This document shows positions 9,701 to 48,925 of a stretch of DNA of 64,000 nucleotides, in pieces (within the stretch, counting starts at the first letter, position 1; every line of letters begins with the position of its first letter). The translations under genes and the position numbers were made by a program. The DNA comes from Selaginella moellendorffii. Taxonomy: Eukaryota; Plantae; Lycopodiophyta. The stretch lies in assembly GCF_000143415.4 (NCBI RefSeq), contig NW_003314277.1:1516493-1580492 (forward strand), in the 5' to 3' direction. The notes beneath the pieces are model-generated. The model saw nothing but the letters and a program-made list of their open reading frames with translations, did not search any database and was not told the origin of the DNA.

Positions 9701-9826
9701 TCAAATGTACCACTGCTTTCCTCCCTCAATCACTGAATCTCCATAAAAGCTGTACGAGGGTAGAACCTCGATCTAAAACCCTAAACTCTAAACTTTAAAG
9801 TTCTTTATTCGCATAACAAGAGTAAT

Positions 9827-11734
9827 TTAAAGAATATGCAAAGCTGCCTGGGCTCGAGCGCTCTCTTCCCCCATTCCCGCTTCCTTGTAAATCGCCGCAA
9901 TCAACACATACGCCGAGGCATTCTTCTCGTCCAGTCTCACTGCTTCCTCGAATGCAAGCTCTCCGATAGCTACGTTCCGCCACTTCCGACACGCTCCCAG
10001 GAGCGTGATCCAGATGCTCAAACTCGGCCGCACAGGCATGCTCCTCACCATGCCCACGGCGACGTCGAGCTGGTTTGCACTGCCCAGCAGCTCGACCATG
10101 TAACCATAGTGCTCGGCTGTGGGAGAAACCGAGTAGCTTGGAAGCATGGCCTGGAAGTACTTCTTGCCTTCTTCCACCAGTCCGCCATGGCAGCACACGG
10201 CGAGAACTGATAGAAACGTGATCCCGTCCGGTTGCAAGCGTTTCCTGTGCATGCTCTCGAAGATCTCGAAGACCATCTTGCAGTCCCCTTGGCGGCTGTA
10301 CCCCGCGATCAGCGCATTCCAAGTAACCAGGCCTTTGGTTTTCGTTGCCGGGAATGCGTCGAAAACCCGCTGCGCATCAGCCACACAGCCACACTTCCCG
10401 TAGGAATCCACCAGCGAAGTCGCAACGACGATATCACCCTCCATTTTCAAGTCCACCGCATGCGCCTCTATACTTCTTCCCACTTCCAGAGCTCCCAAGC
10501 CACAGCAGGCCTTGAGCGCAGCAACGAAAGTCACTCGGTTTGGTTCACAGCCTTCTCTCTGCATGCGTTGATACAGCTCCAAAGCCATCTCGTGCTCCCC
10601 AGCCTCTGCGTATCCCAGGATCATGGAGTTCCAGGACACGGCGTCGTGAAGCCGCATGTTGTCGAAGACACGCCTTGCCTCCGCTAGACTTCCATACTTC
10701 CCATACATGTCCACCAAAGAGCTGGCCACGAATACGTTCCTTGCGTGTCCACTGCTCTCGATCACGGCGTGAATATCTCTGGCCTTGACGAGGCACCACC
10801 TGATGAAAGTCTTCTCGTCGCACTGAGCCGCTTGGAGGATACCTTCCGTGGGTGTGGCTAAGCAAGCCAGAGCCTTGACAGCAGCGACGAAAGTCCGAGC
10901 GTTCGGTGTAAACCCCTTCCGTTGCATGTCCTCGAACAACTCGAGTGCCGCGCAACCGTCTCCACATTCAGCATAGCCGAGAATGATGGAGTTCCACAGA
11001 ACGACGTCTTGGCAGCCTTGAATCTTGTCGAAAACTCTGCGAGCGTCTTCCATACTCCCACACTTCCCATACATGTCCACCAAAGAGCTCGCCACGAAAG
11101 TGTCCCTGTCTAGCCCAAACTTTGCAGCCTGAGCATGGATTTCCCGTCCCTTCTCCAGTGACACAAGTTTTACGAGCCTTCCGTCCGCTTGCTTAGCTTC
11201 TTCTTCCACCTCCGCTAAGCCAGAACAGGCCTTCAAGGCAGCGTAAAATGTGACACGGTTCGGCAGACAGTTTTCTTCCCTCATACGTTGAAACAGTTGC
11301 AAAGCCAAGCCTGCCTCTCCACAGTCTGCATATCCCGAGATCACACACGTCCATGAAACGACTGTCGGCTGCAGTATACCGTCGAAAGTCTTACGGGCCT
11401 CACTCAGGCTGCCGCATTTTGCGTACATAGCCAGCAGCGCGTTCGCAACGTAGACGTCTCTGTCTTCCCTGCTCTCGACCACGTAGCCGTGAATCTTCTT
11501 TCCGTTCTCTAAGTCCTTGGCGCGGCTGCAAAACTTGAGAGCGGCGATAGTAAGGGAAATGTCTGGCCGCTTCCCATCCAGATGAAAATAGTGATAAGCC
11601 CGTAAGTCTCCTTGAGATACCTGCCCGTTTCTCCCTGAGCTCCTATCTGGCCTCTCTGAACCTGGAATGCTGTCTTGCAAGAAGCTGAGATGTCCTGCTG
11701 TAGCAAATGGTTCCCCCCGTATCATTTCCTTCAA
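9827..11734 (-). CDS. PLS-class pentatricopeptide repeat protein with E domain, intronless
   Basis: Repeated MY(A/G)KCG..ARR.FD, VSWNSMILGYA, EHYGYMVELLG, LLGACR, AYVL. Confidence 0.92.
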   Translation of the reverse strand: MKEMIRGEPFATAGHLSFLQDSIPGSERPDRSSGRNGQVSQGDLRAYHYFHLDGKRPDISLTIAALKFCSRAKDLENGKKIHGYVVESREDRDVYVANALLAMYAKCGSLSEARKTFDGILQPTVVSWTCVISGYADCGEAGLALQLFQRMREENCLPNRVTFYAALKACSGLAEVEEEAKQADGRLVKLVSLEKGREIHAQAAKFGLDRDTFVASSLVDMYGKCGSMEDARRVFDKIQGCQDVVLWNSIILGYAECGDGCAALELFEDMQRKGFTPNARTFVAAVKALACLATPTEGILQAAQCDEKTFIRWCLVKARDIHAVIESSGHARNVFVASSLVDMYGKYGSLAEARRVFDNMRLHDAVSWNSMILGYAEAGEHEMALELYQRMQREGCEPNRVTFVAALKACCGLGALEVGRSIEAHAVDLKMEGDIVVATSLVDSYGKCGCVADAQRVFDAFPATKTKGLVTWNALIAGYSRQGDCKMVFEIFESMHRKRLQPDGITFLSVLAVCCHGGLVEEGKKYFQAMLPSYSVSPTAEHYGYMVELLGSANQLDVAVGMVRSMPVRPSLSIWITLLGACRKWRNVAIGELAFEEAVRLDEKNASAYVLIAAIYKEAGMGEESARAQAALHIL

Positions 11735-11785
11735 AACCTTTTATCAACACTGCCCTTCAGAGATGCAGTTTTTAGAAAAGAAAAC

Positions 11786-14700
11786 TCAATACCTGATAGT
11801 TTTGAACATTGAAGAACGCGTCTCGTCCGTTGCTGAAAGCATATGTGGGGCAGAACGGTAGTGCTTGTATTTGTCCAGCTTGAGTTCTCTCTGAATCAGT
11901 AACAGTAGACGCTTGTGAGTGCTTTGCTTCTTCGAAAGTACTTTGTGAAACGCTGCCCAGCCTAGCCACTCCATTTCTTTTGCTCGGCTCAATACTTTCC
12001 CAGATCCCACGGCTTGCATTCTTTGCCGAATCAATCGAAAGGTATACCTGGAAAAAGACTCGGTCACTGTTATCTTCAGGAATACAACTCACCTCGTCGT
12101 TCTTCGAATTGCCTGGAAAAGGAATAGTGGATTATTGACGTTGAATGGCCGTAAGCACTTCAAATACGCATGAAACTTCATCGCACAAAGAAGAAACGCT
12201 TGGTATGCGTTCAAGGATATCGTTGATGCTGAGTTGATCTCGGAGTCGTAAAATACCGGATGACATTTCGGCCTCATGAAATGAAACATCTTCACAACCA
12301 GATTTAGTCCTTGTTTGTGGCACCTCATGACCGTCAGACTAGATCTGATGTGTTCGCCGCAGTATCTGTAAAAACATGTCAGAACATACAAGAAACGTGA
12401 TCGCTTTCAAACGAACCTCGTATAGTCGGCTTGGATTTCAAGAGTGTGACAGTTGATGAGCAAACCACTCCATCGCATGAAACAAGCCCCATCTTCAGTC
12501 GAATACATGGACTTCACGTTCTTCCCACTAATGTCAGTATCAAAGCTTGTAGATGTTTTGTCCTCGTTGACACAGCATCCGAACTGTTCGAGGTCCCTGT
12601 GCATTACGTTCAAGAAAAGTGTTGCCTTTGCTTCAGACGTAGATATAAATAAGGAGTCGTCCACCAGCCGCATAAGAAGAGCCTCGTCTGTGGTCTCTTC
12701 CTTCACCAGGCCGTCCTGAGGTTTCCCTTGTAAAGCTGGTAGTATGTGGCGCAAGTCCAGGTAACCATAGTATAACGCGCATAGGAAAGACGAAAGTACG
12801 CTGCCTTGAGGAATACCGGTAAATTGTTGAAAGAAGTTGTGGCCGAGGTGCAAGATATTGGATTTTATGTGTTCTTTGAGAACTCTCAATAGCTGCACTC
12901 TTGACACATTAGAGTGATAGGCCTGTGGTAACGATTTGTTAGTAATACAACGCCCTGTAATAACCAAAGAACAAACCTGATCAGTAAATATTGTTTCGGA
13001 GCGCTTAGTTGTCAAGTTTCGAACAAAGTTGTAGACCCTCCCATCACTCCCCGCAGTAGCACAGGCTTTCTCGTGAAGCACTCGGACAGATGCCAGCCTG
13101 CTACGGACGGAAGTAAACCGCAAAACAACGTACTTCTCCTCGTGCAAGAACTTGTCAACAATGCTGTAAAGCCGTTCCTGATCGATAGTGTCGAACGCAT
13201 TAGCGACGTCACAAACAGCCAGAAAAATTTTCGTTGGTTCTCGTTGTCTGAAACGTCGGATGAAAGGAAGCAGCTTCAAGTAGATGTCGTTGTAGCCGAA
13301 TACAGACGCGCCAAGATCACCTTGATGACTTTCTTGCTCAAGCTTCAGACACTGATGAGCATCCCCGAGAGCAGAATTGACGGACTTGAACGAATAAACT
13401 GTCTGAATTTTCCCATCACCCCTGGAACCGGAACTTAGATCGGATGATCTCCTTCGATGGCTGACATGAACAACCCGTTTTCCTTTCCTGGACTTCGGAA
13501 AGGTGGAGTCTTTACGCTTGACCACGTAGATTGATGCCGAGCCGAGATTAGCTATTGGTCTGACGCTCGTTTTTTTCGGAAGAAGCCGGACTTTAGAGAA
13601 TCCCAGTGCTCGGTTCCTGAGGGCTTTGTCAGCGTCCACACGTTTGTAGACAGTCTTTGATAGATCACGAACAGCCGCAGACTGAATCTGCGACCATATA
13701 GGCTTCCGGTAAAACACCACATTTTGCCGTTGATTCTCGCTCTCTGTAACGTAGAAGTGAACACGTATCAGAGGAACCAATACGTTTGTAAAAATCCAGT
13801 ATAGCCAGTCTTCTACCATTTGACTTCTGAAATATCCAACTCCTTCGAGTTCCTTGATTGTATCCCGCTTGCTCAGAAAAGTAAAGTCGGAAACCTTAAG
13901 CTTCTGCAACAGCTGAACCGAGGAAAATGCTTCGTACCTCCGAAGTCCAACAAAGCGTGCATACTGCTTTCGAAGAGCTCTCCAGTTTTTGGGAGACCCG
14001 AGCATTTCCTGGGGTATGAGCCTCCTGGAAGCAGCCCACAAGAATGCCACAACTTGATGGTTGGTCGAGGTCATGGCCAGCAGCTCTGATAAAGGCCTCT
14101 CATTTTTTGGTTTGGTGCTACCTTTCCTTGGATCAGGCACTGACTTGCATGAACATGAAGAATCTCCACGAGATTCCTCTTGAGTAACATATCCATCATT
14201 CAGAAACATATCTTTAAAGTAAAGATTGCCATCGATTTCCTGCACGCTTATCCTCAGAACATACGAAATATTCTGGCAGCAATACCTTCCGTGGCAAAAT
14301 TGGCACAGGACAGTGCCGTTTCAAAAGATGGCCACACTGAAACTTTTTAGCGCGACAGATTAGTCTCTTCAGAAGCCGCAAAATAGAAGGTGGGTAGCTG
14401 TGAAAGATATTTTCAGAAACTTAACGCACAAAGCTCATCGACAAGTACCTCTTTTCGGTTGTTTTGCTTCCAAATATTGACTCGAACAACCACGCAGCTC
14501 CCCCGTCCTTACTAGCTGCTGATGTAAAAAGAATATCTGCCTTGGTCAAGGATTTACCAGAAACAAATTCAAATTACTAAAGGATACGAGTTTTTGGCAG
14601 TCCCCCCTTCCTGTTAAAACAAGTGCTATAAAACATCTGTGCACGATCAATCTGTCTATGACAGGCTGCAGGCACACTTTCCAAGCGCTCCACCACCTGA

Positions 14701-15690
14701 GGATTATCAAATAAATCGGAGAAACGGAGAACCACAAATATTACTTTTTGCTTTTTCCTTCGTTGCCAGCTGAAAGGTCTTCTACGCTTTTTAAAAGCTG
14801 CACCTTGAGGTTCAATCTGTGATATTGATTGTGGAGAATTTTCATTTATCACACCTGTTTTGACAAAAAAAATAAAGAAGCAAGGAGAACAAAGCCTGCT
14901 TACCTTCAAGAGTGTAGGACTTTTCATGGCTTCTTGACGAAATAAAACTCAAAAACTCCTGCGATATCCGTCGCTGGCTAGCTGATGCTAGCAAAGTGAT
15001 CGGAGTACCCGAAACTTGCATGTAGCAACAATTTGGAAGAGAAGCGAATACAGCAGCATGAGATAGCAAGTGTAGCATGAGGAGATCACCTGCAAGTATA
15101 AAAGAAAACAGAAGTTTTCAAGAGCCACGGCCAAACAAACAAAATCTTGCCTACACGGGAATGAAGAACACACCACGCAGTGGAAGTTACAGCATCCACA
15201 GTTGTGCTGCGAAATAGGCACTCCAAATTCTGAAAAACCGAAAACCAGAAAGCTAGTCATTTTCATTTCTAGTAAACACCAACTGACCTGCTGGTACCCA
15301 AAGCATAAAACATGAGACGGTCGTTCGCTCTTCCTGAATTGCAGCTCAATGACCCTGTGAACAACCTAGCTAAGAAAAAAAAAAAATTGCTACCGATCCA
15401 TTACAATACAAAGCTAGAAATACCTCTTGCTGCGACCACCGCTGATCGAGTGAAAATGCAGCAGTATTAAGCGACGGGGCGCTCTCAGAAAGGACCGCAT
15501 AGCTATCATACAAGAGCTCCTTGTAATCGGCCGAATCCCCTTCCTGGAACAGCATCCCTGCTCCGTCGCGGCCGCGGCCGAGGAGCTCCAGCACCAGCTG
15601 CCATAGAAATCGCAGGCGATCGCCATACACAGCTCGCAGTACCTTGGGATGGCGCTGCAAACCCTTGCGCCTTCTCGACCTTCCCGGCAT
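11786..15690 (-). CDS. TERT: Telomerase reverse transcriptase (multi-exon; start MPGRSRRRK at 15690 or ATG at 15726)
   Basis: CP motif LKRHCP, T motif HFYVTE..FYRKPIW, motifs 1/2 RLLPKK..RPIAN, A CDVANAFDTI, B' GIPQGSVLS, C RLVDD, E WSGLLIN, plant C-terminal extension ending FKTIRY*. Confidence 0.96.
14537..14587 (-). other. U12-type (minor spliceosome) GT-AG intron in TERT, 51 nt
   Basis: 5' splice site GTATCCTTT, branch site TCCTTGAC 8 nt before the 3' end, no pyrimidine tract. Splicing gives the in-frame LPKTHILF...IFG. Confidence 0.85.
15090..15150 (-). other. GC-AG intron in TERT, 61 nt
   Basis: GTAG|GCAAGA...TTGCAG|GTGAT restores W..L..RVGDLLMLHLL. The neighbouring GT donor gives the wrong frame. 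Confidence 0.75.
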
Positions 15691-15903
15691 TCCTTCTCTA
15701 GGGTTTCTAAAGCTCCCGCCTCTCATACATTTAAATTTAATGAGTCGTTAAAAAACTCTTTTGCTCATGCTAAGAATCGAACCCTGGTCTCCCGACTCCG
15801 TCCACGTGGACGGCTGAGGCCCCAAGGCTTTAGGATAGAGGGTTTAGGGCTTAAGCGTTAGGTCTCCATTTGGCCATGGAGAAAATCAGCTAAGCCGAGA
15901 AGC
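15691..15903. promoter_or_regulatory. Bidirectional promoter region between TERT and Twinkle
   Basis: About 180-210 bp between divergent ATGs. Telo-box-like CTAGGGTTT and AGGGTTTAGGG, and a 16-bp palindrome with a CACGTG core at 15798-15813. Confidence 0.7.
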
Positions 15904-18900
15904 ATGGCGCTGGTCGAGCAGCTCGGCTTGAAATCGGTGAGTTCTTCGCAGCTGCGCGTTGCCCTGTGGAGGAATTCTATGATGCTGCTATTGCAGCGGC
16001 ATTCGCCGGTCTCCTCCTCTCCATTCCTTCCCGCTTCTAGAAAATCTCTGCCAGTTTTTTTGCCAAGAAGATGGGAGCTCCAAATCAGCGCGAGAGGGAG
16101 TCCTGTCTGCCAGTTCGCTTCTGCCGCATCCGAGAATGCGTGTAAGTGATTTATTTCTCTTTTGGTTGCCCTGAGAGAGCGTCATTGTAGATTTGAGAAA
16201 GAACGATCAACTGCCTGTTCGTTTCGAGCTGGAGAAGCTGGGCATTGTCATGGATGATTGGACGCTTGGGAAAGAGCATCGTCTAATATGTCCCCAGGTG
16301 CGTGAAGAGCTTTTTTGTCCAAGTTTCACTGTTTTTCTTTCTCTTGGGCAGTGTAATGGAGGCACCACATACGAGCCCAGCTTTTCTTTGAGGCTTGAGG
16401 ACGAGTACGTTTTGTTCGTTTTTTCATGCGACTACATTTTATTATTTGTTCTGTAGATGGACAGCCATTTGGAAATGCCATCGGAGCACTTGTGGATATC
16501 ATGGAAAGGTGAAGCAATTTATTTAAATGACATCCATAGCTAACTCGGGTGTTTTTTCTTTTCTTTGTTGGCATCAGGCAAATGTACCACATGAGAACGG
16601 AAGTGCCTTGACCAAGCGACAAATGGCAGCAGCTTACCATTGGAGAAATCCCAAAATCACAGAGTTTTCACGCACAAGCTTGAATTTACAACCTTTGAGC
16701 GATGATGTAAGCTGCAGTAGAAGAATTTCACGACTCTGACTACATTTGCAGGTTATCAAATGGTTCGCCACCCGTGGTATATCTCAAAAAGTATTGCAAC
16801 GAAATAGAGTAGAACAGATTTACAGTGGCTCAGAGGTATTTGCTTTTTCTGGTGTATATTCTTGACCATAACTTCTCGTTTAGCTGGCTATTGCATTTCC
16901 TTATTACAAAGAGAACAAAATCATCGACTGTAAATATCGAACCATACCCGAAAAGCGCTTTTGGAAGGTACACGCTTAGCTTTGGCTTCGGTTTTGATCC
17001 GTTTGTGCCAGGCACGGGGCGCTGCAAGGAGAACATTCTATGGTTTAGAAGATATTAAAGGGAGAGACGAAGTTGTCATTGTAAGTGTGCATTTTTCCAG
17101 CGTTATATGCTCAATCTTATTTCTTTTTGGTGTTTTTGACAGGTTGAAGGTGAAATGGATAAGCTTTCTATGGAAGAAGCTGGTATCATAAACTGCGTTA
17201 GCGTGCCCGATGGTGCGCCTGTGAAGGCTGCTGACGGTGAAACGCCAGATCCTGAGGAGGTACGCATTATGGTTCGAGCATACGCATTTCATGTACCTTA
17301 ATATTTTTGCATTGCAGGACAAAAAATTCTCATATCTTTGGGATTGCAAGGAACAATTTGGAAAGGTTCGAGTTCCCGATGAAGTATTTGCGTTGCGAAA
17401 CTTGCATGAAATAATATTTGTGTAGGTGACTCGAATATTTCTGGCCACCGATGCGGACGGTCCCGGACTTGCTCTTGCCGAGGAACTCGCTCGACGTTTC
17501 GGTCGTGAGCGTTGTTGGCGCGTGAACTGGCCAGTCGTCGACGGAAAGCAGTTGAAAGACGCTAACGAGGTTTTCGACTTGTTTCTAACAGTGAACTTCT
17601 CTCAGCGTTTTTTATCGTCAGGTGCTGCTGACGCTCGGGCCAGAAGCGCTGCGAGAAGTTATTGCAAAATCGGAGCTCTATCCAATTCGCGGACTTTTTC
17701 AGTTCTCTAATTTTTTCAAGGAGATTGACGATTACTACCATATGCGTGTTGAGGAAGCGGAAGGTGCTTCCACTGGATGGAAGGGACTAGATGAGTATTA
17801 TACGGTAAGAATTTGGCTATCGTTTTTATTATTCACATGACGACTTTGTAGGTTGTTCCTGGAGAATTGACAATTGTGACCGGAGTTCCGAATTCTGGCA
17901 AAAGTGAGTGGATCGATGCACTGGTCTGTAATCTGAACCGCTCCAAAGGCTGGAGTTTTGCGCTGTGCTCCATGGAAAATAAGGTATGGCTTTCTTACGT
18001 TTATCATTTACTTACCTTTCTGTGACCAGGTGACGGACCATGCTCGGAAGCTTATTGAGAAGCATTACAGAAAGCCGTTTTTTGAGGCCAAGTACTGTTT
18101 TTTACTGTGTTTTTCTTCCTCATAGCTAAAGCTGGCATACTGCACGTTGACAGGTATAGTAACTCCACGCCCAGACTGACTCCGGAAGAGTTTGCTGCTG
18201 GTCTAGAATGGCTGGACAACCATTTCTATTTAATCAGGTTTGCATTGTTTTGTATGAGAAGCGAAGTTGTAACTGCGATTGTAGATGTGAGAATGAGAAG
18301 CTTCCATCTGCTGATTGGGTTTTGGATCGAGCAAAAGCAGCGGTTCAAAGATATGGCATACGAGGATTGGTCATAGATCCTTACAATGAACTAGACCATC
18401 AGCGATCTAGCAGCCAGTAATCGTTTAAAATTTCAACGTAAATTCCCTCCCTCCTCTAACTTGCTTTTGCAGGACTGAAACAGAATATGTTAGTCAGATA
18501 CTAACCAAGATCAAACGCTTTGCTCAACACCATGACTGTCACGTTTGGTTCGTCGCTCATCCGAGACAAGTAAATTTCTTTGTGTCCAGTTCCTAATAGC
18601 AATCTAATTGTTCGTTCTGAACAGATGCTCAACTGGCAAGGACAACCGCCAAATATGTATGACATAAGTGGAAGCGCTCATTTTATTAACAAGTGCGACA
18701 ACGGCATTGTAGTTCATCGAAACCGAGACGCAGAGAAGGGTCCTCTGGATCAAGTCCAGGTAACTTCCGTTTGTGTGTGCGTGTGTTTTGAGCAAGTTTT
18801 TGGTTGATTGCGTGAGAACTTGCGTAAAATCTCCTCTCTGCGCTTTTGTTCCTCGTGCTCATGACGCGTTTTTTGTAGATTCTTGTTAAAAAGGTTCGCA

Positions 18901-19082
18901 ACAAGATAGCCGGGCAGATTGGTGAAGCCGTCTTGAAATACGATAGGTTGGTGTTTGTAAGCTGTGATGTTCGTGCTTGGTTGATTGTTTGTAGCTCTCC
19001 TTTGGTTTCTTTTCTTTTGTGGTCTCTGAAGCTTGCGTTTTGCAGAGTAACTGGTTTGTTCTCCGATGCCGGGCCTGTATGA
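15904..19082 (+). CDS. TWINKLE: Twinkle-like organellar DNA primase/helicase (multi-exon)
   Basis: Zinc finger CPQC...CHRSTC, TOPRIM VEGEMDKLS and ATDADGPG, Walker A TGVPNSGKSEW, Walker B LVIDPYN, ISGSAHFINKCDNG, KVRNK. Confidence 0.93.
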
Positions 19083-20771
19083 ACAAGTTCGTGGAGAAGC
19101 TCCAATTTTGTGTTAGTGCAATGGAGGTAATGGACGTAGAGCCTGATGACGTGAACCTTGCTTTGTAGATTCACCACGGTAAACAAGTTTGTATATGACG
19201 GTAGGATATGATTTTCTTCTCGAGAGACTTTAGAACATTCTGCAGATAAGCTAATTATAAGGGTAATGTGACAATTTCCAAGATGATTACATGATAAAGA
19301 CCTTTTTAACAAGTAAAAACATAGTCCCACTTAAGGTTTTTCAATTTGGAGAGGGCCGCACGTACGCGAGCCCTCAACTTCCACAAATTACAACGTCCAC
19401 TCCTCCACTTTGGGAAGATGGTAGGCCGGCCAAGCCGAAGTGCAATGGGAAGGCTGAACCTAGGCCATTGGCTTTTACGATCACCAATAGACCCCGTCCA
19501 GGTAAGTCCCTATTAAACACACTAATAAATGGAAGTATTGAACAAATAAATTATATGGTTACACAACACCGATCATGGTTTGCCATTTAAAAATAAAATA
19601 TTATATTAACAGCACTAACCAATTTGTCATTTTGGGGAAGAAGCAATACCAATAGGCTGTGTTTATAACATTAGAGGCCTCCTCATAATATTGAAGTTAC
19701 ATTGAATGAGAAAAACATAAGAAGAGCTCGTGAAGCATCACTATGAAAAATCTTTGTGGATTTCTCAGTTATAGTTGTGTATAAATCTAAATCAATAGCA
19801 ATAGGAGGTTACTACAACAAAGCCCAACAAGAAATTGTGAGTGACTGCTAAGGATAAAAAAAGCTGGTAGCAAAACAAGGCTGCGATCAAAAGTCATCTA
19901 AATTATATTGAAATGCTCTTTTTACATGAATGATTTTCCTCAAGGAACAGGTTGAGACAGAATACCTTTAAAAAGTATCTCGTGGAGAAGTATGGCTACT
20001 ACTTTTAAGAGAATTCTCTGTTTAGTTTAAACCACTCAAGCAATAATTGCAAGATAGATTATTTCAAACTCTAAATTTTATCTTCTTCATCCTCATCCTC
20101 TTCATTGTCTTGTTCTGGTAGCTAGAGTGGTCCCAAAACAAACTCAAAATCTCTAAGAGCCTTCAAAGGAGCCAATTTAACCACTAATAATTTTTTGGAA
20201 CTCATTCATGGGATTATTTCATATTAAGAACAGAATTAAGGTAAAGCTAGGAGTCTAAACAATTTTCCCTGTTTGAATTACAAGAATCTTTGGTTAGGGA
20301 TAAGTCTTCAAAGGCCCTTTATATTTTATTGTTAAAAGAGCAAATGTTAAAATGATAAACATTATATTCAAATCTATTAGACACTCTTAATTAAATCAAT
20401 ATAAGACAATAATACAACCATAGAATAATAATAGCAATTTTAATATTAATAACAATAATAATAACCACTCTGCTTACTTTAAGAATATTCTCCATGTATA
20501 AGAGCTAATCAGAAAACCACAAATTCATATATAGTTATATAATACAACGCATCTTTATTAAGGATCTTTAGGATATTCTGTATCATGTGACTTTTATAAA
20601 TATACATTTTATAACGTCAAAACACTTTTTTAGATATTGTTTAGTACACATCTATGTTATTACCATCTCAATCTTTTCTATAAAGAGATTAGTAAAATAT
20701 CAAGTTTAACATAACAGAATTATTATTAAAGTGATTAAAAAATAATTTCTTATAAATTATATAATAAACAT

Positions 20772-45060: not shown

Positions 45061-45739
45061 GTTTATTGGATCTCTGGTGCAACCCTGGAGTTTTGTTTGT
45101 GGGTGAGTAAGCTTTCACGGTTTCAGAGCAATATATTATTGCCGCATCAAAATTTGGAGCTCCGAGTCTCACGCCCCGAGGATTTGAAAGGATCCAAACC
45201 TATGGACCTCCAGCTTTGACAACCAAGTGAAGAATAGATTCCCGGGACTAGGGTGCCTGGATCAAATCAAACTCGAGCTCAGACAAGCCATCTTCCAGAA
45301 CAATATCTTAAACAGATGTTGCTGGTTCTTGTTGCAGCATACTTATACTTTGTTTCTCAAAAGTAGCTTCTGCATCAGCTGCTTGCTCAGATTGAGATAC
45401 ATACCTCCCATCCAACCCGTTTTGTTTGCCATGACCTCGCTAGAGCATGGAGAAAGCGAGAGTTTCATTCCATCGAGAAGAGAATGGTTTCTTTCTTGAG
45501 CTTGACAGTAGCAACGAGCACAAAACGAAAATCTCTTGCGCCGCTGTTTACATTATGGTATACGTTAAGAAGCAGTTAGTGTACACTTCGAACGGGAACC
45601 TGATGCTGGATATCTGGCTAGAATAAGAAAATATATTGGTAAGGTCACAGGTTCGAATCCACAGCCAGAGATCCAATCACATTTTTTTGTATGAACGAGG
45701 ATTTCTCTTCTCCGCAAAGTCGCTCTCGGAGCTAAATCT

Positions 45740-48729: not shown

Positions 48730-48925
48730 AGTGTTCATGGCTTTGTGGTTGTAGCATGGATGCTGTAATGTTCTATTGTGTAGGGTTGCTGGGTTCAATT
48801 CCCATCTGCCTCAACTTTCAATTAAGATTAATATGGTATTAGGGTTGCCCCCTAAACATCAACACTATTTTATTATTTTTTGCCCCCTAAACGTGAATAC
48901 TATTTTATTATTTTATTATTAAATT
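48730..48925 (+). mobile_element. Candidate tRNA-derived SINE relic
   Basis: A-box-like TGGCTTTGTGG, B-box-like GGGTTCAATTCCC, duplicated TGCCCCCTAAAC unit and TTTTATTA tail. Confidence 0.35.

What the first reader, a model, noticed from the sequence alone, without database searches (positions are those of the whole stretch)
15750..15882. Pol III-like cassette with a telomere-template-like motif immediately upstream of TERT
Seen on the minus strand, in order: A-box-like TGGCCAAATGG (15876-15866, within a 7-bp stem TCTCCAT/ATGGAGA); CCCTAAACCCT (15849-15839, about 1.5 plant telomere repeats); a 16-bp palindrome; a tRNA-like CGGGAGACCAGGGTTCGATTC with a B-box (15783-15774); and a T6 run (15755-15750). 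Known: land-plant telomerase RNAs are longer and use USE/TATA promoters, so this is probably not the canonical TR. Inference (speculative): either an approximately 130-nt Pol III RNA or structured TERT 5' leader that might bind TERT as a decoy, or a TFIIIC/insulator site in the bidirectional promoter. The mundane alternative is a telo-box next to a tRNA relic.
Basis: inference. Interest (0 to 1): 0.7.

Follow-up and report, generated by a model that had tools for sequence, protein, structure and literature searches.

The report
tRNA relic in telomerase gene promoter
In the spikemoss Selaginella, the 213-base gap between the telomerase gene and a DNA-helicase gene holds tRNA-type promoter boxes, a short telomere repeat and a T-run; this is most likely a tRNA-derived relic lying over an ordinary shared promoter, and probably not the telomerase RNA itself.

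Summary
The window is Selaginella moellendorffii; the cassette fills most of the 213-bp gap between head-to-head TERT (ATG 15690, minus) and Twinkle (ATG 15904, plus). An A-box/B-box/T-run pattern occurs only here and at the window's real tRNA-Pro, and in 0 of 300 random windows. A 21-nt stretch is identical to a tRNA-Asp variable loop and T-arm, but no cloverleaf survives. The telomere 11-mer is weak evidence: telomere runs are five-fold enriched window-wide and a second 11-mer lies at 9776; the palindrome is centred on a G-box. Plant telomerase RNA tests fail: no USE/TATA, no pseudoknot, no P4-P6 stem, fold no better than shuffles. In two RNA-like data sets the Twinkle contig leaves the window at 15852, between A-box and telomere motif, so another version of the locus may lack the intact cassette. 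No evidence on transcription, and no lycophyte relative could be compared. Best reading (0.55): tRNA-derived A/B-box element plus an independent telo-box in a bidirectional promoter. A miniature type-2-promoter telomerase RNA beside TERT is not excluded (0.1) and would be a major surprise.

The parts
15866..15876 (-). A-box-like element, in the 3' end, loop and second arm of a 7-bp hairpin (15882-15863)
   Evidence: Sequence; fits TRGCY...YGG as given for tRNA-derived A boxes in PMC10886601; 6 strict A-box matches in the window; lies within Twinkle leader contigs of runs X1 and X3
15839..15849 (-). 11-nt telomere C-strand run; likely telo-box, would be the template under the novel reading
   Evidence: S. 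moellendorffii telomeres are TTTAGGG (PMC3400083 passages); 10 of 11 nt mostly unpaired, P 0.66-0.83
15798..15813 (.). 16-bp palindrome centred on a G-box CACGTG (15803-15808); a GGNCCC TCP-type motif lies at 15818-15823
   Evidence: motif names are recalled
15774..15794 (-). tRNA-like variable loop, T-stem 5' strand and T-loop, including the B-box (15783-15774)
   Evidence: Exact 21-nt match inside a tRNA-Asp(GTC) gene, L004; the 18-nt core lies in tRNA genes in 12 of 13 loci
15750..15755 (-). T6 run, possible Pol III terminator, 18 nt after the B-box, at the distance expected after a tRNA 3' end
15699..15706 (-). Canonical telo-box AAACCCTA just upstream of the TERT ATG, outside the cassette
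11786..15690 (-). TERT gene, ATG to the stop of the last large exon ORF
   Evidence: spliced contigs
15904..19082 (+). Twinkle primase-helicase gene, head to head with TERT
   Evidence: spliced contigs

Best explanation
The cassette is a set of tRNA-type A and B boxes with a T-run, likely left over from a tRNA gene or tRNA-derived element, lying over the shared TERT/Twinkle promoter, and its telomere 11-mer is likely an independent telo-box rather than a telomerase template. Shown: the motifs, their rarity as a set, the tRNA identity of the B-box half, the loss of tRNA pairing, the head-to-head genes. Inferred: TRB proteins would bind the two telo-boxes and a bZIP/bHLH factor the G-box to drive the two replication genes; TFIIIC would probably still bind the A/B boxes (83 nt apart) as a chromatin-organising site, with little or no Pol III output because the upstream DNA is GC-rich Twinkle coding sequence with no TATA or CAA element and a T4 run precedes the A-box.
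For: 21-nt identity to a tRNA-Asp V-loop/T-arm; 18-mer in tRNA genes in 12 of 13 loci. B-box to T-run distance as in a tRNA gene, pattern shared only with tRNA-Pro. ARAGORN and Rfam see no tRNA here, so it is not an intact tRNA. Other B-box relics lie at 45650 and 48792; the species has 1290 tDNAs (PMC2888827 passage) and its own tRNA-bearing TRIM (PMC10886601). Telomere runs are five-fold enriched in the window, with a second 11-mer at 9776 and a plain telo-box at 15706; telo-boxes peak just upstream of start sites in moss, near the start of 9% of highly expressed wild-type genes (PMC12616469 passages). No USE or TATA match in the 148 nt upstream; no plant-type pseudoknot. Twinkle contigs of 2 studies switch to 169 unlike letters at 15852, between A-box and telomere motif, and the printed 30 letters are not in the window.
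Against: A-box, telomere run, palindrome, B-box and T6 share one strand and a sensible order within 133 nt next to TERT of all genes; each step of the mundane reading needs a coincidence. Both boxes match consensus while tRNA pairing is gone, which suggests selection or a young functional gene. The tRNA likeness outside the 21-mer is not significant (5' part p 0.07-0.95 for 9 tRNAs; 3' part 1-5 of 11-13 nt). The comparison tRNAs were picked by the match itself and come from viral contigs, not from Selaginella. A-B spacing of 83 nt is more than twice that of the window's tRNA-Pro and of the Helenus-1_SMo LTR. The window's U1 gene also shows no match to my USE patterns, so the USE test is weak in this species.
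Confidence: 0.55

Rival explanations
1. It is a real, miniature telomerase RNA gene (main or second copy) that uses an internal type-2 Pol III promoter and sits beside TERT. The 11-mer is the template (4 nt to align, 7 to copy), a helix 15856-15849 with 15770-15763 is the template boundary, and the long hairpin binds TERT.
For: Template fits the TTTAGGG telomere and is mostly unpaired. Order template, CCCTCT, G-run, CCTCAG-CCG loosely echoes the AtTR segment visible in mutagenesis primers (PMC11093817 supplement 3; compared by eye; the wild-type G-run there is recalled, the primer shows it mutated). Full A/B/T set is rare. No paper found that names the S. moellendorffii TR.
Against: All sampled plant TRs have a type-3 promoter, a pseudoknot and a P4-P6 stem (PMC8287931 parts 4-6). 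Here: 0 pseudoknots under published-like or medium geometry; 1 under loose rules, which 71 of 150 shuffles also give. Boundary helix P only 0.21-0.25. This TERT keeps a KRxR motif that binds P4 in Arabidopsis. Lycophyte TRs with the standard P1.1 element are already reported. Possible break of the cassette at 15852 in another version of the locus.
Confidence: 0.1
2. It is a transcribed, lineage-specific Pol III small-RNA gene of about 135 nt built on a gutted tRNA. It affects TERT, either as a template-bearing decoy RNA or because Pol III running towards TERT and stopping 60 nt before its ATG modulates the promoter.
For: Consensus A and B boxes and T6 with decayed tRNA stems; two stable hairpins.
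Against: Fold not better than shuffles; no upstream TATA or CAA, whereas tRNA-Pro has CAA 7 nt upstream (their importance in plants is recalled); T4 just before the A-box; single copy in the window.
Confidence: 0.14
3. The A-box side and the telomere/B-box side are unrelated and meet by chance or through a haplotype-specific junction near 15852; only a lone B-box relic and ordinary promoter motifs are real.
For: Junction at 15852 in 2 studies, same length of unlike sequence; A-box matches are common (6 strict in the window); A..B without T-run arises 21 times in 300 null windows; two haplotype scaffolds carry both genes.
Against: Full pattern 0 of 300. The unlike contig end could also be a k-mer join to another locus that shares the 5' hairpin, or a derived insertion; only 30 of its 169 letters were shown.
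Confidence: 0.13
4. It is a solo LTR of a Helenus-like TRIM (tRNA promoter inside a short LTR), a family known in plants only from this species.
For: A TG...CA segment 15768-15888 is 121 bp with 5-nt flanks differing at 1 position; Helenus-1_SMo LTRs are 120 bp with 5-bp TSDs.
Against: By eye the published Helenus-1_SMo LTR shares only the B-box core, has normal tRNA spacing and different ends.
Confidence: 0.08

Closest known systems
tRNA pseudogenes and tRNA-derived A/B-box elements (tDNA relics; TFIIIC-bound ETC-type sites, the latter recalled)
   Same: A-box, B-box, tRNA V-loop/T-loop sequence, T-run at tRNA distance, lost cloverleaf
   Different: A-B spacer of 83 nt holding a telomere run and a palindrome; overlaps a 213-bp bidirectional promoter
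Plant telo-box promoter modules bound by TRB proteins (PMC12616469, passages)
   Same: Short telomere runs near gene starts, here two, with G-box and TCP-type motifs, at two replication genes
   Different: The upstream run is 11 nt, ends in CCCT-C rather than the canonical AAACCCTA, and sits between A and B boxes
Viridiplantae telomerase RNA (PMC8287931, PMC6765143, PMC12133305)
   Same: Telomere C-strand run of 1.5 repeats, unpaired, on a unit that ends in a T-run; loose echo of the AtTR post-template segment
   Different: No USE/TATA, internal A/B boxes instead, no pseudoknot, no P4-P6, about half the roughly 260 nt of AtTR, adjacent to TERT
Helenus-1_SMo TRIM (PMC10886601)
   Same: Same species, about 120 bp, tRNA-derived A and B boxes
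   Different: Sequence unlike the consensus outside the B-box core; long A-B spacer; no convincing TSD

Membership tests
Viridiplantae telomerase RNA | Template of more than one telomere repeat, single-stranded | tested here: met
   11 nt, 10 of 11 with unpaired P 0.66-0.83
Viridiplantae telomerase RNA | Type-3 promoter (USE and TATA) upstream | tested here: not met
   No TATA or USE match in 148 nt upstream, which is Twinkle leader and coding DNA; caveat: U1 upstream also gave no match
Viridiplantae telomerase RNA | Pseudoknot 3' of template (P2 about 5 bp G/C-rich, U-containing 6-8 nt loop, P3 7-12 bp) | tested here: not met
   0 under published-like and medium rules, 1 loose candidate at chance level; candidates use the terminator U-run and have a loop without U
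Viridiplantae telomerase RNA | P1c closing helix / P1.1 boundary element | tested here: inconclusive
   Helix 15856-15849 with 15770-15763 at P 0.21-0.25; 5' hairpin ends 13 nt before the template
Viridiplantae telomerase RNA | Long P4-P6 stem 3' of the core | tested here: not met
   Only about 13 nt follow the candidate closing helix before the T6 ends
Viridiplantae telomerase RNA | Hit with the published plant TR covariance models | not testable with these tools
   Supplements too large to read; Rfam scans gave no telomerase hit, and I did not verify that Rfam 15 holds a plant model
Viridiplantae telomerase RNA | Templates telomere synthesis with TERT | not testable with these tools
   Needs TRAP reconstitution
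Intact tRNA gene | Cloverleaf: acceptor, D, anticodon and T stems | tested here: not met
   No ARAGORN or Rfam call; T-stem 3' strand and acceptor strand differ from all matched tRNAs
Type-2 Pol III promoter unit | A-box, B-box and downstream T-run in order on one strand | tested here: met
   2 hits in the window incl. tRNA-Pro control, 0 of 300 null windows
Type-2 Pol III promoter unit | TFIIIC/Pol III occupancy and a transcript | not testable with these tools
   No raw reads or stranded total RNA were offered
Helenus TRIM solo LTR | Similarity to Helenus-1_SMo LTR | tested here: not met
   Compared by eye only
Helenus TRIM solo LTR | TG...CA ends with 5-bp TSD | tested here: inconclusive
   121-bp TG...CA with 4 of 5 flank match, near chance
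tRNA-derived SINE | Many copies, TSD, body and tail 3' of the B-box | tested here: inconclusive
   One copy in the window, no 6-nt TSD, T6 follows the B-box directly; genome-wide copy number untestable

The most novel reading that the evidence does not exclude
Selaginella moellendorffii encodes a roughly 135-nt telomerase RNA, or a TERT-binding template RNA, from a tRNA-type internal promoter wedged into the TERT promoter itself: a pseudoknot-less plant TR that swapped the ancient USE/TATA promoter for A/B boxes and is physically linked to its protein partner.
Probability: 0.1. Interest if true: 0.9.

Novelty: new member of a known kind. Interest (0 to 1): 0.35.

Why it matters
Under the best reading it is a modest case: a tRNA-derived A/B-box element inside a very compact promoter shared by nuclear (TERT) and organellar (Twinkle) DNA-maintenance genes, and a caution that telo-boxes mimic TR templates. 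If the novel reading held, it would break three regularities of plant telomerase RNAs (type-3 promoter, pseudoknot, about 260 nt) and be missed by the USE-based searches used so far. One model search of the genome and one RT-PCR would decide it.

Tried and rejected
No whole genome is held, so copy number, the second haplotype and a canonical TR elsewhere could not be searched. Run search: no RNA holder listed on record; 18 holders are only guessed RNA. Of 24 listed runs I laid 8, all contigs. None of the 7 runs with spliced contigs covers 15697-15851; this is no evidence either way, since most libraries are poly(A)-selected and miss Pol III RNAs (PMC8287931). Run X20, of unknown kind, has one 274-nt, depth-2 contig 15751-16024 identical to the window; it shows that the sequence exists in a read set, and its left end lies in the T6, but a contig cannot show an RNA end and the run may be low-cover DNA. 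Conservation: only 3 Sphagnum-type TERT loci were found (96-99.8% to a Sphagnum TERT); 2 have about 5.8 kb upstream; none has Twinkle, a tRNA or a cassette match; too distant to weigh. Rfam: nothing credible; the beta-tmRNA hit (9.7 bits against 84) comes from the T-loop. A split tRNA-Asp model (5' arm, insertion, anticodon arm with fold-back) looked attractive but was not significant. Intron-bearing tRNA rejected: no anticodon or D stem. Penelope-like element link: nothing in the passages read points here. Accession spacing of TERT and Twinkle on the two scaffolds is not positional, so it says nothing on adjacency. Earlier scan findings: none by sequence or in this genome.

Full report
Setting. 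The minus-strand gene is TERT; its closest protein is Selaginella moellendorffii TERT at 97%, and its ATG is at 15690. The plus-strand gene is the Twinkle primase-helicase, ATG 15904. Both genes are annotated on two scaffolds, 2.47 and 6.18 Mb, which I read as the two haplotypes; the window matches the 2.47-Mb proteins, and the other Twinkle allele differs at 15955. The 133-nt cassette therefore fills most of a 213-bp gap that must also serve as promoter for both genes.

Observation. Every motif is at the stated place. As a set, A-box, B-box and T-run are not chance: 2 hits in the window, the other being the true tRNA-Pro, against 0 in 300 Markov windows (spacing range chosen post hoc). The parts alone are weaker. 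B-box plus T5 arises 154 times in 300 null windows. Telomere runs of 8 nt or more number 21 against 4.4 expected, and a second 11-nt run lies at 9776. Palindromes of 16 bp or more are expected about once per window, and this one is centred on a G-box. The RNA fold is unremarkable (z -1.0 to -1.6; plus strand -1.9).

tRNA origin. Positions 15794-15774 are identical over 21 nt to the variable loop and T-arm of a tRNA-Asp(GTC) gene, the only hit in the viral collection. The 18-nt core gave 13 loci; ARAGORN was run on 12 and called a tRNA over the match in 11; the one left out (L011) is the same place as L004, and L007 is cut by its contig start. The distance from B-box to T6 fits a tRNA 3' end plus a 6-nt trailer. 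But the second T-stem strand, the anticodon arm, the D-stem and the acceptor do not pair, ARAGORN and Rfam call nothing, and similarity outside the 21-mer is not significant for any of 9 tRNAs. Two more B-box relics lie at 45650 and 48792, so tRNA-derived debris is not rare here.

Telomerase RNA test. PMC8287931 (parts 2-6 of 7 read) and PMC6765143, PMC12133305 (passages) define plant TRs by a USE/TATA promoter, template, P1.1/P1c, a P2/P3 pseudoknot and a P4-P6 stem, and state that lycophyte TRs have the standard boundary element. The cassette meets the template criterion only. There is no upstream USE or TATA match, though U1 in this window also fails my patterns. No pseudoknot is found under published-like or medium rules; one loose candidate is matched by 71 of 150 shuffles. 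A boundary helix next to the template has P 0.21-0.25. In its favour, the stretch after the 11-mer loosely echoes the AtTR segment seen in primers of PMC11093817 (supplement 3 and section 19 read), but the strand that would close P2 is missing; this is a by-eye lead. I recall that Song et al. 2019 used a Selaginella kraussiana TR; that paper is not held and I saw none of it.

Read data. Eight runs were laid, all as contigs. TERT contigs reach 15686-15696, Twinkle contigs begin at 15852-15959. In X1 and X3, from two studies, the Twinkle contig continues past 15852 into 169 letters unlike the stretch laid, and the 30 letters shown are nowhere in the window. The switch falls between the A-box hairpin and the telomere run. 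The simplest reading is another version of the locus (second haplotype or duplicate) with different DNA there; a k-mer join to another locus sharing the hairpin is also possible. Either way it is unexplained, and it weighs mildly against an indispensable unit. Nothing here shows or excludes a transcript of the cassette.

Other options. S. moellendorffii is the only plant with a described Helenus TRIM, whose 120-bp LTR carries tRNA boxes (PMC10886601 passages, sections 11 and 15, supplement hits). A 121-bp TG...CA segment spans the cassette with a 4-of-5 flank match, but the consensus is unlike it by eye and such flanks are near chance. Three Sphagnum-type TERT loci lack Twinkle and any cassette; no lycophyte DNA was reachable.

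Mechanism. Most likely (0.55): two overlapping things. A Pol II promoter with telo-boxes at 15849 and 15706, a G-box and a TCP-type motif, as is usual near plant gene starts (PMC12616469 passages; binding here inferred). And a tRNA-derived A/B-box element that TFIIIC probably still recognises but that is poorly set up for transcription (inferred; upstream needs of plant tRNA genes recalled). Rivals: expressed regulatory Pol III RNA 0.14, chance or junction 0.13, true miniature TR 0.10, Helenus-like solo LTR 0.08.

Literature coverage. Ten searches returned no paper on this locus, on the S. moellendorffii TR or on a plant TR with A/B boxes. The TR tables most likely to settle it are in supplements or papers I could not see. 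Also seen as passages only: PMC3400083, PMC8557442, PMC7145096, PMC10856949, PMC2888827; PMC13447467 gave no term hits; 12 of 18 supplement files of PMC12169523 were searched with no Selaginella entry.

Verdict. Real and non-random motif set, probably an ordinary tRNA relic plus telo-box; interest 0.35, carried mainly by the small chance of a TERT-linked miniature telomerase RNA, which is cheap to test.

Noticed in passing
window 15690-15904: TERT and the organellar Twinkle primase-helicase are head to head with ATGs only 213 bp apart; the 2 Sphagnum-type TERT loci with long upstream flanks lack this neighbour.
   Followed up: partly
window 15852: Twinkle contigs of two studies continue into the same length (169 nt) of sequence that is not in the window: other haplotype, duplicate locus or a join to a related small-RNA locus.
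   Followed up: partly
window 45556-45679 (+): 124-bp TG...CA segment with a B-box, 4-of-5 flank match and a 3' end that resembles by eye the Helenus-1_SMo LTR end; possible decayed solo LTR.
   Followed up: partly
window 48740-48810 (+): A-box-like and B-box motifs at near-tRNA spacing, resembling by eye the tRNA part of Helenus-1_SMo; no Rfam hit.
   Followed up: partly
window 19349-19509 (-): U1 snRNA gene (118.6 bits) whose upstream region matched none of my USE or TATA patterns; the Selaginella USE may be divergent, which would hamper USE-based TR searches.
   Followed up: no
window 15421-15690 (-): The 4 RefSeq TERT protein models start downstream and omit the first exon, which UniRef B5TFM8 and spliced contigs include.
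   Followed up: partly
window 15877-15894 (+): Five-codon upstream ORF in the Twinkle leader, starting inside the A-box hairpin.
   Followed up: no
window 9769-9790: About three degenerate telomere repeats just downstream of an intronless PPR gene (9827-11740, minus) that directly follows TERT.
   Followed up: no
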